Assembly: GCA_049975585.1 (NCBI GenBank)
Contig: JBNGEB010000001.1
Location: 7,992 to 58,897, forward strand
Length of the DNA stretch: 50,906 bases
Direction: 5' to 3'
Source of the DNA: Anaerolineae bacterium
GTDB lineage: Bacteria; Chloroflexota; Anaerolineae; UBA1429
In this document: positions 11,576 through 18,246 of the stretch, in pieces
Position numbering within the stretch: the first letter of the stretch is position 1
Layout: each line of letters begins with the position of its first letter
Made by a program: the position numbers and the translations under genes
The notes under the pieces: model-generated
Seen by the model: only the letters and a program-made list of their open reading frames with translations
The model's database searches: none
Told to the model about the DNA's origin: nothing

Positions 11576-11604
11576 TTGCCTCACCTCTCTAACCCGAGTA
11601 TCAT
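11576..11604 (+). promoter_or_regulatory. Sigma-70-like promoter candidate for the N-ATPase operon (TTGCCT-17-TATCAT)
   Basis: Hexamers at 11576-11581 and 11599-11604 with a 17-nt spacer. A GGGGGC/GCCCCC hairpin (11617-11636) lies in the leader. Confidence 0.4.
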
Positions 11605-11663
11605 CAAAGTGTGTCTGGGGGCATTTGGTGGCCCCCCACAATCGATAGGCACCATCAAGGAGA

Positions 11664-13070
11664 ATGGCACTTGTGAGGGTCGGACGCGTTGCTCGCGTGA
11701 TGGGCGTTGTGGTTGACGCTCGCTTTGCGCCCGGCGATCTTCCTGCCATCAACAGCGCTCTTGTGATCGAGCGCCCTCAACAGCCGCCACTCGTTCTGGA
11801 GGTGCAGGAGCATATCGATCCACAGACTGTGCGGTGCATCGCCATGTCGACCACCTCCGGTCTGCACCGTAACATGACGGTGACCGACACAGAGCATCCG
11901 ATCCAGGTCCCCGTGGGCGATGGCACCTTGGGACGCATGTTCAACGTGCTAGGAGAACCCATCGATCGTCAAGGTGAGGTGTCCTACACCGAAAAGCGGC
12001 CCATTCACCTGACCGCGCCCGAGCTAAAGGAGCAACGGCTCACCAGCGAGATCCTCGAGACGGGGCTGAAGGTCATCGACCTCTTGACGCCATATGGCCA
12101 GGGAACCAAGATCGGCCTCTTTGGCGGAGCGGGCGTCGGCAAGACGATGCTGGTGATCGAGCTGATCCGACACAGCACCCGGCGACGCGACGCGCTCGCC
12201 ATCTTTGCAGGAGTAGGTGAACGCACCCGTGAGGGCAACGACCTCTGGCTGAGCATGCGCCGCTCTGGCGTGCTGGACGATAGCGTGCTGGTGTTTGGCC
12301 AGATGAACGAGCCGCCCGGTGCCCGCCTCCGTGTGCCGCTCACGGCTCTGACCATGTCGCAGTATTTCCGCGATGACAGCGGCCGCGACGTCCTTCTCTT
12401 CATCGACAACGTCTATCGCTATGTGCAGGCAGGCGCCGAGATCTCGGCCTTGCTGGGTCGCGTGCCTAGCGCAGTGGGATACCAACCCACCCTGGCCACC
12501 GAAATGGGCGAGCTCCAAGAGCGCATCACCAGCACGACCAGTGGAGCTATCACCTCGGTGCAAGCCATCTATGTCCCGGCCGATGACATTACCGATCCCG
12601 GCGTCGTGGCGGCCTTTGCCCATTTGGACGCCATTACGGTGCTGACGCGCAAGCTGTCCAGCCAGGGGTTCTACCCGGCGGTGGACCCGCTGGCTTCCTC
12701 ATCCAAGATGCTCGAGGCACGCTACGTCGGCGATCGCCACGTGCGTATCGCCATCGAGGTCAAAGCGGTCCTAGCCAAGTACGAGGCACTGCAGGACATC
12801 ATCTCCATCCTCGGCACCGACGAGCTATCCGAGGAGGACCAGACCGTCGTGCGTCGCGCCAGGCGGCTTCAGCGCTTTCTGACGCAACCGTTTTTCTCCA
12901 CAGAGCAATACACGGGGCTCGAGGGTCGCTATGTCAGCATCGACGAGACCCTAGACGGCTTTGAGGCCATCCTGAGCGGCGATCTCGACGAGGTCCCTGA
13001 GCAAGCCCTCTACATGATCGGCGCCATAGACGAAGCCTTGGAAAAGGCCGAGGAACTCGAGCACAAATGA
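11664..13070 (+). CDS. atpD: F-type ATPase beta subunit, first gene of an N-ATPase-type operon
   Basis: Walker A GGAGVGKT, Walker B LLFIDN, DELSEED-like TDELSEED. The start may be GTG 11673, which is better spaced from AAGGAG. Confidence 0.93.
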
Positions 13071-13444
13071 GTGACGAAATCAAGGCTCCAGAGCGACTGC
13101 AGTTGGTGATCCTCACGCCAGATCGGGTGCTCTTTCGAGGGCCGGTGCAGTGGGTGCAAGCGCCACTCGAAGATGGGCTGCTGGGCGTCTGGCCCGGGCA
13201 CGCTCCCCTGCTAGGCGCGCTGGGACATGGCACGGCTACCTACCATACGGGCGATGGCATCCAAGAGCGCGAGATCGCGGGAGGCGTTCTGCGCGTTGCT
13301 GGGGAACGCTGCTCACTCTTGACGGTGACGGCAGGAGAGGAGCTGCCCGAGGACAAAGGCGCAGGCGCCAACTTGGCAGCCGCACTCGAGGCGGCGCTGG
13401 AAGAGCGCCTGACAGAGCAAGAGCTGGCCGAGCTGCAAGGATGA
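13067..13444 (+). CDS. atpC: F-type ATPase epsilon subunit
   Basis: 125 aa, overlapping the atpD stop by 4 nt. Beta-sandwich pattern [13 protein letters not shown]...[11 protein letters not shown]. Confidence 0.85.
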
Positions 13445-15583: not shown

Positions 15584-17342
15584 TGTACCCGTCGAGGAGG
15601 GCGTTCGTTCAACGCAGACATCCTCCTCGAGTGGCGAACGGCTGCGTCCGACGTACACAGGACTCCTGAGCTTCCGTCCGGAGGTCGCATTCCAAGAGAT
15701 GCTCGACTCAGTAGCAAAGCACGGCAAAAAGACCGATACATCCCTATCGGTCACAGAGAGCCGCGGTGAGCCAAGCAGGAGCTCGGCCAAAGGCCGTGGT
15801 CGCTCTTTGCAGATCACCCAACGCTACGTACACCGACCAAAGGAATCCCTGCGCACCATGCTCAACTCGGTCGTCACCGAGACGCGAGGGGCGCGTTCGG
15901 GGCTTTCGGTACGCGATGTCGGCACCGTACGCCAAGTTGGAGACGGCGTGGCATCCGTTTGGGGGTTGCCCCAAGTCGCAACGGACGAGCTCCTCAGATT
16001 CCCCAATGGCGTCATGGGCCTGGTGATGAACCTGGAGACCAATTGGATCGACTGCATCCTGCTTGGGTCAGACGAAGGCATCCAGGGTGGCGATCCCGTT
16101 TGGCCCACCGGCGAGCGGATCCAGGTCCCCGTCGGCGAGGCTCTCCTGGGCCGAGCCGTCAACCCGTTGGGCGAGCCAGTCGACGGCAAGGGCGCGCTCT
16201 ATACGGACGAAGCACGCTTTGTGGAGCGCGAGGCCCCTGGCGTCGTCGAGCGCCAACCCGTGGAGGAACCTCTGCATACAGGCCTGAAGGCCATCGACGC
16301 CATTGTGCCCATCGGCCGTGGGCAGCGCGAGCTCATTGTGGGCGATCGCCAGACCGGCAAGACCACCATCGCCTTGGACACCATCATCAGCCAAAGGGAT
16401 TCGGACGTTGTCTGCGTGTACGTCAGCATTGGCCAACGTCGCTCGTCAGCCCTTCAAGTGCTACGCACCTTGGAGGAAGAAGGCGCCCTTGGGCACACCA
16501 TCATGGTCATGGCGGCGCCCGATGATCCGCCAGCCCTGCTCTACCTGGCGCCCTATGCCGGATGCACCATCGCCGAGGGGTTCCTCGATCATGGCCGAGA
16601 CGTCCTCATCGTGTACGACGATCTTACCAAACACGCCGATGCTTACCGAGAGCTATCGCTGCTCCTGCGCCGCCCTCCCGGCCGCGAAGCCTATCCCGGC
16701 GACATCTTTTACCTGCACGCCCGCTTGCTCGAACGTGCCGCGCGCCTGAACGACAGGATCGGCGGAGGCAGCATCACGGCGCTCCCCATCATCGAGACGC
16801 GTCGAGGGAACATCCAGGCCTACATTCCCACCAACCTCATCTCTATCACCGACGGGCAGATCTACCTGGACCCAGATCTGTTCAACCAAGACATCAAGCC
16901 CGCCGTGGACGCCGGGCAATCCGTCTCGCGCGTAGGAGGCGCGGCACAAGCGCCCATCATGCGCCGCGTGAGCTCCCAGGTAAAGCTGGCCCTCGCCCAA
17001 TACGAGGAAGTGGCGCACTTTGCCCGGTTTGGCAGCGAGATTGATCCCACGACTCAGGAACAGATCGTGCGCGGCGAGCGCCTGCGCGAGGTGCTCAAAC
17101 AACCGGCTCACAAGCCATTGCCTCTAGCGCAGCAGGTCCTGGCGTTCTTTGCTGCCAATCGTGGCTTTCTAGACCATCTGCCCACCGAACAGGTAGCGAG
17201 CTTTGAAGAGTCCTTGTGGGAGTACGCGCAGCGCGAACACCCAGCCGTGATCCGCAGCATCGACGAGGAGCAAGAGCTGACTGCCGAACTAGAACAGGAT
17301 ATGCTGCAGCTCATCCGCGACTTTTCGGATCGTTCGGTCTAG
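15534..17342 (+). CDS. atpA: F-type ATPase alpha subunit (start uncertain: 15534, 15699 or 15858)
   Basis: Walker A GDRQTGKT, plus the ITDGQIYL and VSRVGG blocks. The conserved core begins near SVRDVGTVRQVGDGV (about nt 15900). The first about 108 codons of the long ORF are low-complexity and overlap atpF by 50 nt. Confidence 0.9.
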   Translation: MQDDRRRKSQGAPQTDSVPVEEGVRSTQTSSSSGERLRPTYTGLLSFRPEVAFQEMLDSVAKHGKKTDTSLSVTESRGEPSRSSAKGRGRSLQITQRYVHRPKESLRTMLNSVVTETRGARSGLSVRDVGTVRQVGDGVASVWGLPQVATDELLRFPNGVMGLVMNLETNWIDCILLGSDEGIQGGDPVWPTGERIQVPVGEALLGRAVNPLGEPVDGKGALYTDEARFVEREAPGVVERQPVEEPLHTGLKAIDAIVPIGRGQRELIVGDRQTGKTTIALDTIISQRDSDVVCVYVSIGQRRSSALQVLRTLEEEGALGHTIMVMAAPDDPPALLYLAPYAGCTIAEGFLDHGRDVLIVYDDLTKHADAYRELSLLLRRPPGREAYPGDIFYLHARLLERAARLNDRIGGGSITALPIIETRRGNIQAYIPTNLISITDGQIYLDPDLFNQDIKPAVDAGQSVSRVGGAAQAPIMRRVSSQVKLALAQYEEVAHFARFGSEIDPTTQEQIVRGERLREVLKQPAHKPLPLAQQVLAFFAANRGFLDHLPTEQVASFEESLWEYAQREHPAVIRSIDEEQELTAELEQDMLQLIRDFSDRSV

Positions 17343-17343
17343 C

Positions 17344-18246
17344 ATGGAAGACCTGGAGCGCATCAAAGAGCACCTGCGCAATATCCAGAGCGTTGAGCCG
17401 ATCATCTCGGCGCTCAGGACGATCGCCGCGAGCGCCTGGCGCCAGGCTCGCAGCCGTCTCCAAGCTACGCAAGACTATACAGAGGACCTGGGAGCTGTGC
17501 TTGCTTCGCTGCTACCCAGGTTGACGCAGTCCTCTCGGCCACTCCCGTTCATCGTGCCCGACCGCACCTCTGCCACCAAGACGGCTCTCGTAGTGATTGC
17601 CTCGGATCGAGGCCTCTGTGGATCCTACAATGACATCATCCTCGAAAGAGCGGATAGGCATCTGGCACAACGTCCAAGCGGCACCTCACCGTTGCTGATC
17701 ACGCTGGGTTCGCGAGCGGAGCAGCACTTTCTCGCGCGAGGTACCCCCCTTTTTCTGGCGCAGCCCATGCCAGTGACGCGGGTAGTGAGCTATCGGGCCA
17801 TCGGAGCATTGGCAGGGGCCCTAGAGAAACTGCTGATCAGCGGCATGGTGGAGGCCATCGATCTTGTTTATGCGCCCTACCGAGGGGGAATGGCTGCGCG
17901 GGCAGAGGTCACGCGCTGGTTGCCCATCACCCCGTCACAACTGCCAGAAGCTGGCGAGAGCGACCAATCTCCCATCATCGAGGGAGACGCCGTCGCCATA
18001 GCTCGGTACGCACTAGAAGAATGGACACGTGTGCGGCTTTTCCACTTGATCGTGGAATCGGTAGCGACCGAACACGCCAGCCGCTATTTTGCCATGGAGC
18101 GTGCCAGCGACAACCTATCGGAGCTGATCGAGGAGCTCACGCAGGTCTATCACAGCGCTCGCCAACACGCCATCACCATGGAGATGCTGGACCTGGTAGC
18201 TGGTTCGGGCATCCTGAAGCCTCCCTCAGAACGCCAGATCCACTGA
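17344..18246 (+). CDS. atpG: F-type ATPase gamma subunit
   Basis: 300 aa, with N-terminal IKEHLRNIQSVEPIISALRTIAAS and C-terminal ARQHAITMEMLDLVAG helices. Confidence 0.88.
   Translation: MEDLERIKEHLRNIQSVEPIISALRTIAASAWRQARSRLQATQDYTEDLGAVLASLLPRLTQSSRPLPFIVPDRTSATKTALVVIASDRGLCGSYNDIILERADRHLAQRPSGTSPLLITLGSRAEQHFLARGTPLFLAQPMPVTRVVSYRAIGALAGALEKLLISGMVEAIDLVYAPYRGGMAARAEVTRWLPITPSQLPEAGESDQSPIIEGDAVAIARYALEEWTRVRLFHLIVESVATEHASRYFAMERASDNLSELIEELTQVYHSARQHAITMEMLDLVAGSGILKPPSERQIH

What the first reader, a model, noticed from the sequence alone, without database searches (positions are those of the whole stretch)
11576..18246. Complete N-ATPase-type operon (beta-first gene order, no free-standing delta)
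The gene order is beta, epsilon, small membrane protein, a, c, b, alpha, gamma. This is the atpDC(Q)RBEFAG order that defines the laterally transferred N-ATPase clade (Dibrova et al. 2010), not the canonical atpIBEFHAGDC order. N-ATPases normally occur in addition to a housekeeping F-ATPase and are thought to act as ion-extruding pumps.

Only one small membrane gene (13441-13743) lies between epsilon and a, where two (atpQ and atpR) are typical. This operon therefore appears to lack one of the two accessory subunits.
Basis: partly seen in the sequence, partly recalled or inferred. Interest (0 to 1): 0.6.

Follow-up and report, generated by a model that had tools for sequence, protein, structure and literature searches.

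The report
N-ATPase-like operon without AtpQ
This is an intact second rotary ATPase operon of the N-ATPase kind, probably sodium-coupled, in an uncultured Anaerolineales bacterium that also has an A/V-type ATPase; it is a lineage-specific variant of a known system, not a new one.

Summary
Eight intact, tightly packed + strand genes (11664-18246) encode beta, epsilon, one small membrane protein, a, c, a long b, alpha and gamma.

The small protein is an AtpR homologue, and AtpQ is the missing subunit. The b subunit carries a delta C-terminal domain, and no free delta gene exists in the genome. The c subunit has Glu in both helices plus ESTxxY, a sodium-type site.

The 91%-complete genome has no canonical F operon. 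Its other rotary enzyme is an A/V-type ATPase with a proton-type K subunit.

In trees the operon sits in a Chloroflexota-resident clade. That clade lies outside canonical F-ATPases and outside the sampled classical N-ATPase clades. Deeper members of the clade keep the full atpDCQRBEFAG order. Downstream synteny shows vertical inheritance within the family, not recent transfer.

Of 19 related genomes with this type, 17 also carry an A/V-type or canonical F enzyme.

ProAD (2025) already reports N-ATPases beside A-ATPases in Chloroflexota. This scan also noted a similar Anaerolineae operon on other DNA (e1-1092701).

New details are the AtpQ loss, a 60-108-residue N-terminal extension on alpha, and NCBIfam's N-type models missing this lineage.

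Verdict: a new variant of a known kind, of moderate interest.

The parts
11576..11604 (+). Promoter-like site, TTGCCT-17-TATCAT, 60 nt upstream of atpD
   Evidence: Consensus scan. The count of such sites in the region is not above shuffled sequence, so this is a weak lead only.
11664..13070 (+). atpD, F1 beta subunit, 468 aa
   Evidence: TIGR01039 scores 707.6 bits (cut-off 462.85). The N-type model TIGR03305 scores 608.6, below its cut-off of 752. Pfam finds ATP-synt_ab. The P-loop and the DELSEED-type motif can be read in the translation.
13067..13444 (+). atpC, epsilon subunit, 125 aa; its start overlaps the beta stop (ATGA)
   Evidence: PF02823 scores 56.3 bits. TIGR01216 scores 46.3 bits, below its cut-off.
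13441..13743 (+). AtpR-like small membrane protein, 100 aa, three hydrophobic segments; Arg49 and Arg79 are invariant across orthologues
   Evidence: - PF12966 (AtpR) scores 24.5 bits against a gathering score of 26.
- It is the best six-frame match in the whole genome for both PF12966 and TIGR03165.
- Alignment A1 of 10 orthologues has G13, R49, G74 and R79 invariant.
- hhalign of A1 against bona fide AtpR (A2) gives 96.4% probability, E 1.1e-9, with both Arg aligned.
- There is no similarity to Bacillus or E. coli AtpI.
13748..14407 (+). atpB, Fo a subunit, 219 aa, GTG start
   Evidence: PF00119 scores 133.3 bits. It is 28-35% identical to N-ATPase a subunits and 23-29% to canonical ones.
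14470..14742 (+). atpE, c subunit, 90 aa, with Glu in helix 1 and ESTxxY in helix 2 (sodium-type, two-carboxylate site)
   Evidence: PF00137. The alignment shows E32 and E65-S-T-x-x-Y conserved across the window-type clade and shared with N-ATPases. The canonical partner enzymes in G017 and G024 have Ala and E-A at the same positions.
14753..15583 (+). atpF, long b subunit fused to a delta C-terminal domain, 276 aa
   Evidence: PF00430 matches residues 8-121 and PF00213 (OSCP) matches residues 175-244, at profile positions 100-170 of 172. The best NCBIfam model is the N-type b, TIGR03321, at 104.9 bits, below its cut-off. This is the only OSCP match in the genome.
15534..17342 (+). atpA, alpha subunit. 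Open frame of 602 aa; the conserved core begins near 15858; a low-complexity N-terminal extension is probably translated from ATG 15534, which overlaps the end of b
   Evidence: - TIGR00962 scores 682.9 bits; TIGR03324 scores 631.5, below its cut-off of 750.5.
- The frame stays open back to the b stop in all 6 genomes of the genus and in 7 other window-type or sister operons of related genomes.
- In each of the 8 window-type operons tested (6 genera), an in-frame ATG lies within -49 to +2 nt of the b stop.
- A conserved peptide block is present at 15675-15715.
17344..18246 (+). atpG, gamma subunit, 300 aa
   Evidence: PF00231 scores 185.1 bits. TIGR01146 scores 160.3 bits, below its cut-off.

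Best explanation
The operon encodes a complete, intact N-ATPase-like rotary ATPase. It has an F1 head (alpha3beta3, gamma, epsilon) and a peripheral stalk made of a b subunit fused to the C-terminal part of delta. Its Fo part has an a subunit and a c ring whose two-carboxylate E...ESTxxY site is of the sodium-binding type. An AtpR-like three-helix protein with two membrane-embedded arginines probably assists c-ring assembly, as proposed for AtpR.

It belongs to a Chloroflexota-resident lineage related to, but distinct from, the classical N-ATPases. The crown group of that lineage has lost AtpQ and gained an N-terminal extension on alpha.

In this genome it works beside a proton-type A/V-ATPase. 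Its most likely role is ATP-driven Na+ extrusion or sodium-motive-force maintenance in a saline, anoxic habitat.

Shown: gene content, motifs, homology, phylogenetic position and co-occurrence. Inferred: ion specificity, direction of operation and the AtpR function.
For: - Gene order and intact domains.
- AtpR homology with both arginines aligned.
- b-delta fusion, and no other OSCP match in the genome.
- c-subunit motif shared with N-ATPases and absent from the canonical partner enzymes.
- The only other alpha/beta-family genes in the genome are A/V-type A and B plus Rho.
- Trees: the window type lies outside canonical F with 97-100% support.
- The a+c+gamma tree splits {window type, N-ATPases, haloarchaeal type} from canonical F at 100/99.
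- The AU test rejects a clade of window type plus canonical Chloroflexota enzymes (delta lnL 102, p 1.5e-5).
- The AU test does not reject a clade of window type plus N-ATPases (p 0.33).
- Sister operons in G018 and G116 keep the full D-C-Q-R-B-E-F-A-G order.
- 17 of 19 related genomes with this type also have an A/V-type or canonical F enzyme.
- Near-identical DNA occurs in oil-field, sediment, seawater and microbial-mat metagenomes.
- ProAD reports N-ATPase plus A-ATPase combinations in Chloroflexota (PMC11738941).
Against: - All six NCBIfam 'alternate F1F0' models score below their cut-offs, and the canonical atpD and atpA models score higher. However, accepted proteobacterial N-ATPases (Sphingobium, Burkholderia) fail the same cut-offs with similar scores.
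- AtpQ is absent.
- In paralog-rooted alpha+beta trees the clade is sister to canonical F rather than to N-ATPases, although the root position is not resolved.
- One genome of the same genus (G004, 90% complete) shows no second rotary ATPase. ProAD reports a Chloroflexota genus (T78) where an N-type enzyme is the only one. The type may therefore be able to serve as the sole enzyme.
- The genome also encodes a Na+-pumping decarboxylase beta subunit, which could drive the enzyme in the synthesis direction.
- There are no expression or biochemical data.
Confidence: 0.72

Rival explanations
1. The enzyme runs mainly as a Na+-driven ATP synthase, fed by the sodium gradient that a membrane decarboxylase builds, as in Propionigenium modestum. 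The A/V-type enzyme would handle protons.
For: - The genome encodes a Na+-translocating decarboxylase beta subunit (PF03977, 520.5 bits).
- The c subunit has a full Na+ site.
- According to a 2026 preprint, N-ATPases have been shown to couple Na+ to both ATP synthesis and hydrolysis in vesicles, and may act as stand-by synthases at low membrane potential (10.64898/2026.10.01.756066).
- ProAD reports a Chloroflexota genus with an N-type enzyme as its only rotary ATPase.
Against: - In 17 of 19 related genomes the type comes with another rotary ATPase, the pattern used to argue that N-ATPases cannot replace the main synthase (PMC2881411).
- No Rnf/Nqr-type subunit was found in the genome, which is 91% complete.
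- Direction cannot be read from sequence.
Confidence: 0.25
2. It is a bona fide member of the classical, laterally mobile N-ATPase clade, recently acquired by this lineage and then stripped of atpQ.
For: - Same gene order, AtpR, b-delta fusion and c motif.
- The AU test does not reject one clade of window type plus N-ATPases.
- My N-ATPase sample was drawn from plasmid records only and lacks Methanosarcina, Chlorobi, Planctomycetes and Desulfobacterota.
Against: - The sampled N-ATPases form their own clades that exclude the window type (93/93 in a+c+gamma; 97/99 and 100/99 branches in alpha+beta).
- The nearest relatives are all Chloroflexota.
- Downstream neighbours are conserved across genera of the family.
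- GC content matches the flanks.
Confidence: 0.1
3. It is the organism's ordinary housekeeping F-type ATP synthase with a rearranged gene order.
For: - It is the only F-type set in the assembly.
- Canonical atpD and atpA NCBIfam models pass their cut-offs.
- Its beta is 56-61% identical to canonical betas and 51-55% to N-type betas.
Against: - Relatives in the same family carry a separate canonical-type operon beside this one. In the complete genome G024 the two lie 3 kb apart.
- A clade with those canonical enzymes is rejected (p 1.5e-5).
- It has AtpR, a b-delta fusion and a two-Glu c subunit.
Confidence: 0.04

Closest known systems
N-ATPase (atpDCQRBEFAG; Dibrova, Galperin & Mulkidjanian 2010, PMC2881411), for example Picosynechococcus PCC 7002 pAQ7, Acaryochloris and Burkholderia operons
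   Same: - Beta-epsilon-first order.
- AtpR with two membrane arginines.
- No delta gene, and a long b with a delta C-terminal segment.
- c subunit with Glu in both helices plus ESTxxY.
- Present beside another rotary ATPase.
   Different: - No AtpQ.
- Alpha carries a 60-108-residue N-terminal extension. The gap from the b stop to the alpha core is 175-278 nt, against 4-72 nt in the N-ATPases checked.
- It forms a separate Chloroflexota clade.
- It is vertically inherited in its family.
- Its F1 subunits are slightly closer to canonical ones in identity.
Chloroflexota N-type ATPases catalogued in ProAD (Litvin et al. 2025, PMC11738941)
   Same: N-type enzyme beside an A-type ATPase in Chloroflexota. 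One of the listed combinations, H+-A plus Na+-N, matches what the motifs predict here.
   Different: ProAD's rule expects two extra genes between epsilon and a; this operon has one. I could not check whether this genus is in ProAD or how it is labelled there.
Deeper Chloroflexota relatives found here (G018, G116: D-C-Q-R-B-E-F-A-G; G055: D-C-Q-B-E-F-A-G, G223: D-C-Q then an unannotated 240-nt gap before a)
   Same: Same clade in alpha+beta trees (100/99 for the sister group, 92/76 for the union), with b-delta fusion and a Na+-type c subunit.
   Different: They keep AtpQ, and some lack AtpR. Alpha has little or no extension in G018; alpha starts in G055, G116 and G223 were not examined.
Canonical F1Fo ATP synthase (atpIBEFHAGDC)
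   Same: Homologous alpha, beta, gamma, epsilon, a and c subunits, with intact catalytic motifs.
   Different: Different gene order, no separate delta, AtpR instead of AtpI, and a two-carboxylate Na+-type c. It is excluded from the canonical clade.

Membership tests
N-ATPase (Dibrova et al. 2010) | Operon order atpD-atpC-atpQ-atpR-atpB-atpE-atpF-atpA-atpG | tested here: inconclusive
   The order is D-C-R-B-E-F-A-G. Every position matches except that atpQ is missing. Sister operons in G018 and G116 have the full order.
N-ATPase (Dibrova et al. 2010) | [quoted passage not shown] | tested here: met
   - R49 and R79 are invariant in 10 orthologues.
- hhalign to bona fide AtpR gives 96.4% probability, E 1.1e-9, with the arginines aligned.
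- PF12966 scores 24.5 bits, just under the gathering score of 26.
- 5 of 10 orthologues match PF12966.
- The curated-model threshold itself is not met.
N-ATPase (Dibrova et al. 2010) | AtpQ (PF09527) gene in the operon | tested here: not met
   No PF09527 match over the cut-off in six frames of the whole genome, and none in the operon. Dibrova et al. note that AtpQ is not specific to N-ATPases.
N-ATPase (Dibrova et al. 2010) | No delta gene; long b whose C-terminus aligns with the delta C-terminus | tested here: met
   The b subunit is 276 aa, with PF00430 at 8-121 and OSCP at 175-244 (profile positions 100-170). This is the only OSCP match in the genome.
N-ATPase (Dibrova et al. 2010) | c subunit with Glu in helix 1 plus the ESTxxY Na+ ligand set | tested here: met
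Ion specificity itself is inferred, not measured.
N-ATPase (Dibrova et al. 2010) | Always a second enzyme beside an F- or A-type ATPase | tested here: met
   - The own genome has an A/V-type operon on contig C125.
- 17 of 19 related genomes with this type have an A/V-type or canonical F enzyme.
- One more genome (G011) has a truncated second beta.
- One genome (G004, 90% complete) has none.
N-ATPase (Dibrova et al. 2010) | Subunits cluster with N-ATPases, apart from typical F-ATPases | tested here: inconclusive
   Separation from typical F-ATPases is met. Clustering with the sampled N-ATPases is not resolved: N is monophyletic without it in a+c+gamma (93/93), yet one joint clade is not rejected (p 0.33). 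The N-ATPase sample was limited to plasmid-borne operons.
NCBIfam 'alternate F1F0 ATPase' equivalogs (TIGR03305, TIGR03324, TIGR03306, TIGR03322, TIGR03321, TIGR03323, TIGR03165) | Score at or above each model's curated cut-off | tested here: not met
   Scores against cut-offs: beta 608.6 vs 752; alpha 631.5 vs 750.5; a 131.2 vs 302.1; c 77 vs 130.85; b 104.9 vs 224.7; gamma 98.5 vs 282.35; AtpR 15.4 vs 55.5. Calibration: PCC 7002 passes, but Sphingobium and Burkholderia N-ATPases also fail. These models therefore define a subclade, not the whole kind.
Canonical F1Fo ATP synthase | atp(I)BEFHAGDC order with a separate delta, and subunits inside the canonical clade | tested here: not met
   The order differs and there is no delta gene. 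It is excluded from the canonical clade at 97-100% support, and the AU test gives p 1.5e-5.

The most novel reading that the evidence does not exclude
In the paralog-rooted alpha+beta tree, three groups form a grade: the classical N-ATPases, then the Chloroflexota N-like clade that holds this operon, then a further beta-first, AtpQ-only, b-delta-fused type (G026:C62) that is sister to all canonical F-ATPases. If that rooting is right, these operons are surviving intermediates. They would show that the beta-first, b-delta-fused, Na+-type layout is the ancestral F-type state, from which the canonical synthase arose. The crown-specific N-terminal extension of alpha would then be a lineage-specific way of anchoring a stalk that lacks the delta N-terminal domain.
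Probability: 0.15. Interest if true: 0.6.

Novelty: new variant of a known kind. Interest (0 to 1): 0.35.

Why it matters
- It gives a concrete, intact example of an N-ATPase-like enzyme that current curated models do not recognise. Annotation pipelines label it as an ordinary F0F1 ATP synthase, so metabolic reconstructions of Anaerolineales from oil-field, sediment and marine samples would wrongly credit them with a housekeeping proton F-type synthase.
- The natural loss of AtpQ with retention of AtpR separates the roles of the two accessory subunits. AtpR looks like the indispensable one in this clade.
- The clade's position between classical N-ATPases and canonical F-ATPases bears on the debate about the ancestral form of F-type ATPases. 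My trees do not settle the root.

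Tried and rejected
- Search of the 50%-identity representative library with beta. The top hits were fused, truncated or odd-length representatives at 60% identity or less, with no names. It was of no use for placing the clade.
- Search for sequencing runs. Only DNA metagenomes with low word shares were listed; no listed RNA run is shown to hold the stretch (the search was kind 'any', not an RNA search). Expression and the alpha start could not be examined, and I did not lay reads.
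- NCBIfam N-type cut-offs as a membership test. I rejected these as decisive after calibration showed that accepted proteobacterial N-ATPases fail them too.
- Promoter and terminator scan. Counts were not above shuffled sequence, and no terminator-like site lies after gamma.
- The idea that the small protein is a canonical AtpI. Eight of 10 orthologues touch PF03899 weakly, but the profile shows no similarity to Bacillus or E. coli AtpI, and both AtpR arginines are present.
- The reading of 15584-15857 as an untranslated gap. It is disfavoured because the alpha frame stays open in every relative and holds a conserved peptide block.
- Literature searches for 'N-ATPase' with 'Anaerolineae' found nothing. 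Searches with 'Chloroflexota' found ProAD and a 2026 preprint.

Full report
**1. Observation**

The + strand between 11664 and 18246 holds eight open frames with overlapping or near-abutting junctions. Pfam and NCBIfam identify them in order:
- beta: TIGR01039, 707.6 bits
- epsilon: PF02823
- a 100-aa hydrophobic protein
- a: PF00119
- c: PF00137
- a 276-aa b subunit
- alpha: TIGR00962, 682.9 bits
- gamma: PF00231

All frames are intact, and the catalytic motifs can be read in the translations. Coding begins at 11664. GC content does not differ from the flanks.

**2. The stalk and the missing delta**

The b protein matches PF00430 over residues 8-121. It matches the last 70 positions of the OSCP/delta profile over residues 175-244. 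Its best NCBIfam model is the N-type b, TIGR03321. A six-frame search of the whole genome finds no other OSCP match. The peripheral stalk is therefore a b-delta(C-terminal) fusion, as described for N-ATPases (PMC2881411).

**3. The single accessory gene**

The 100-aa protein scores 24.5 bits on PF12966 (AtpR), against a gathering score of 26. It scores 20.1 bits on PF03899. Genome-wide six-frame searches with PF12966 and TIGR03165 each return this ORF as the only match, below cut-off.

I collected the equivalent ORF from nine related operons. All start at or overlapping the epsilon stop. Their alignment has G13, R49, L57, G74 and R79 invariant. Seven bona fide AtpR proteins from annotated N-ATPase operons have G15, G19, R50, G80 and R85 invariant, with the same G-x4-R spacing.

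Profile-profile comparison gives 96.4% probability and E 1.1e-9, with both arginines aligned. The same profile finds nothing in Bacillus or E. coli AtpI.

The retained subunit is therefore AtpR-like. AtpQ (PF09527) has no match over the cut-off anywhere in the genome.

**4. The c subunit**

The alignment shows Glu in helix 1 and E-S-T-x-x-Y in helix 2. This is conserved across the window-type clade and shared with N-ATPases. The canonical-type enzymes that coexist with the window type in G017 and G024 have Ala and E-A at these positions.

By the published ligand rules (PMC2881411) this predicts Na+ binding. That is an inference, not a measurement.

**5. What else the genome has**

The assembly is a MAG of 2.65 Mb in 372 contigs, 91% complete. 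PF00006 finds five genes:
- the window's alpha and beta
- A/V-type A and B on contig C125
- Rho

C125 carries d(C), I, K, F, E, A and B of an A/V-type ATPase and is cut by the contig end. Its K subunit has Val at the position equivalent to the helix-1 Na+ ligand and E-G-I in helix 2, so I predict H+ coupling. This rests on my reading.

No canonical F operon was found. The genome also encodes a Na+-translocating decarboxylase beta subunit. No Rnf/Nqr-type subunit was found.

**6. Relatives**

The beta subunit's closest database relatives, at 65-97% identity, are named Chloroflexi, Anaerolineae or Anaerolineales MAGs wherever they carry a name. Genus-level relatives are uncultured Anaerolineales.

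Among 40 related genomes, beta genes fall into two score populations on TIGR01039, roughly 680-710 bits and 735-820 bits. Fetching the loci showed two operon types:
- The lower population sits in operons with the window's order.
- The higher population sits in alpha-gamma-beta-epsilon order; where the Fo genes were captured (G017, G024) the order is a-c-b-alpha-gamma-beta-epsilon.

The complete genome G024 has both types 3 kb apart on one strand.

The window's b protein at 46% identity or more marks 19 genomes with the window type. Their other rotary ATPases are as follows:
- 13 have an A/V-type A subunit.
- 6 have a canonical-type beta; two of these genomes have both.
- G011 has only a truncated second beta.
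- G004 (90% complete) has none.

Downstream genes are conserved next to the operon across genera of the family. This argues for vertical inheritance there.

**7. Phylogeny**

Reference N-ATPase operons came from plasmid records: Acaryochloris, Picosynechococcus PCC 7002 pAQ7, Hymenobacter, Azospirillum, Sphingobium, Methylovirgula and Burkholderia pyrrocinia. Each has the annotated D-C-Q-R-B-E-F-A-G layout.

Canonical references were E. coli, Bacillus, Fusobacterium, Nonomuraea, Paracoccus and Acetoanaerobium, plus canonical Chloroflexota operons.

Results under LG+C20 PMSF:
- Beta tree: the canonical F clade has 93/99 support and excludes the window type, which itself has 96/97.
- Alpha tree: the canonical clade has 100/100, and the window type plus a haloarchaeal plasmid operon is its sister.
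- Concatenated alpha+beta with reciprocal paralog rooting: the topology is (N cyanobacterial/Bacteroidota clade, N proteobacterial clade, (Chloroflexota N-like clade + Salinigranum, 97/90), (G026:C62 type, canonical F)).
- a+c+gamma, unrooted: {window type, N-ATPases, Salinigranum} split from canonical F at 100/99. N-ATPases are monophyletic at 93/93 without the window type.

AU tests:
- Holding the window type with canonical Chloroflexota enzymes costs 102 lnL units (p 1.5e-5).
- Holding the window type, Salinigranum and the N-ATPases together costs 2.8 lnL units (p 0.33).

The robust result is therefore three groups. The position of the root, and hence 'sister to N' versus 'sister to canonical F', is open. 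My N-ATPase sample is also limited.

**8. Diversity inside the phylum**

An even sample of 200 Chloroflexota genomes gave only 7 further long-b matches. The loci show a range of layouts:
- D-C-Q-R-B-E-F-A-G in G116, as in G018
- D-C-Q-B-E-F-A-G in G055 and G026:C62; G223 has D-C-Q followed by an unannotated 240-nt gap before a
- N-type-like sets in G140 and G149

The first two groups, except G026:C62, join the window type's clade. The full Q+R order is therefore probably ancestral to the clade, and the crown that holds the window lost Q.

**9. Calibration of curated models**

All NCBIfam 'alternate F1F0' models score below cut-off on the window's proteins. PCC 7002 proteins pass: 803.9, 812.3, and 69.4 for AtpR. 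Sphingobium and Burkholderia N-ATPase proteins fail, with scores close to the window's: beta 621.7 and 611.9, alpha 596.6 and 593.9, AtpR 27.5 or no match. These models capture a subclade. Failing them lowers 'member of that equivalog' but not 'N-ATPase-like'.

**10. Alpha's N-terminus**

The alpha frame is open from ATG 15534, which lies 50 nt inside b. The conserved core starts near 15858.

Across six genomes of the genus, at about 66% DNA identity at the extremes, the 274 nt in between have no indels and no stops in this frame. They contain a conserved block at 15675-15715 and show more third-position variation from 15699 on.

In all eight crown operons tested, an in-frame ATG lies within -49 to +2 nt of the b stop. 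The distance from the b stop to the alpha core is 175-278 nt, against 4-72 nt in N-ATPases. The extension is probably translated. It has no Pfam match.

**11. Mechanism**

Shown:
- a complete set of rotary ATPase subunits
- an AtpR homologue
- a fused stalk
- a Na+-type c motif
- accessory status in most relatives

Inferred:
- The enzyme couples ATP hydrolysis or synthesis to Na+ movement through the a/c interface.
- AtpR's arginines pair with the c-subunit carboxylates during ring assembly, as proposed in PMC2881411.
- In vivo the enzyme most likely pumps Na+ out.

The habitats that hold near-identical DNA are oil fields, sediments, seawater and microbial mats. These fit a sodium-handling role but do not prove it. 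The decarboxylase keeps a synthase role plausible.

**12. Prior knowledge**

ProAD (PMC11738941) already states that in Chloroflexota an N-ATPase is found beside an A-ATPase. It also reports that genus T78 has an N-type enzyme as its only rotary ATPase.

A 2026 preprint (10.64898/2026.10.01.756066) discusses early-branching F-ATPases with short or fused delta, including Chloroflexota.

This scan's earlier notes describe a similar second N-like ATPase in another Anaerolineae genome (e1-1092701) and an N-like lineage with a doubled c subunit (e1-1428731).

The present locus is therefore a variant of a known kind. Its specific features are AtpQ loss, the alpha extension and clade-level separation from classical N-ATPases. 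I did not find these three features described in the papers I searched.

Noticed in passing
window 15534-15857: The alpha frame stays open for 108 codons upstream of the conserved core and overlaps the end of b. The stretch has no indels or stops across six genomes of the genus and holds a conserved block at 15675-15715. All eight window-type operons tested (6 genera) have an in-frame ATG at the b stop and a 175-278-nt extension that N-ATPases lack.
   Followed up: partly
G000 contig C125 (L008:1-6964): A/V-type ATPase operon (d/C, I, K, F, E, A, B), cut by the contig end. It is the genome's only other rotary ATPase. The K subunit lacks the Na+ ligands, so it is predicted to be H+-coupled.
   Followed up: partly
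L026 (G024:C1:1038000-1057900): In this complete 2.76-Mb relative, the window-type operon (2376-8953) and a canonical-order F operon (about 12080-18344) lie on the same strand, 3 kb apart.
   Followed up: partly
L060 / L031 (G026:C62): A further beta-first operon (beta, epsilon, AtpQ-like, a, c, long b, alpha, gamma) without AtpR. It branches as sister to all canonical F-ATPases (98/91) in the alpha+beta tree. The same genome also has a window-type relative and an A/V-type enzyme.
   Followed up: partly
L042 (Salinigranum marinum plasmid NZ_CP100463.1, 289281-296093): A haloarchaeal plasmid carries a beta-first F-type operon with one AtpZ/AtpQ-like gene, a 182-aa doubled c subunit and a 295-aa b subunit. 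It groups, on a long branch, with the Chloroflexota N-like clade. ProAD reports that complete F-ATPase gene sets appear absent from archaea and that N-ATPases are rare there.
   Followed up: no
G000:C29:14220-15269: A Na+-translocating decarboxylase beta subunit (PF03977, 520.5 bits). The organism therefore has a primary sodium pump besides the ATPase. No Rnf/Nqr-type subunit was found.
   Followed up: no
G019 (same family, 99% complete, 2.6 Mb): No F-type beta and no A/V-type A subunit were found at the thresholds used. This relative may lack any rotary ATPase.
   Followed up: no
L023, L041 (Sphingobium and Burkholderia pyrrocinia plasmid N-ATPase operons): NCBIfam's 'alternate F1F0 ATPase' exception models and TIGR03165 miss these accepted proteobacterial N-ATPases. 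RefSeq names their subunits as ordinary F0F1 subunits, and the long b as 'hypothetical protein' or 'subunit delta'.
   Followed up: yes
L057 (G027:C20:23500-36500): An Fo-only cluster (AtpQ-like, a, c, long b of about 240 aligned residues) in an Anaerolineae genome; no alpha, beta, gamma or epsilon gene lies within the 13 kb fetched. The canonical-type enzyme there may also use a fused or long b subunit and a split operon.
   Followed up: no
window 18248-21607: The genes just downstream of gamma are a VIT1-like membrane protein and a 506-aa ORF. They are conserved next to the operon in several genera of the family, which anchors it in a stable chromosomal neighbourhood.
   Followed up: partly
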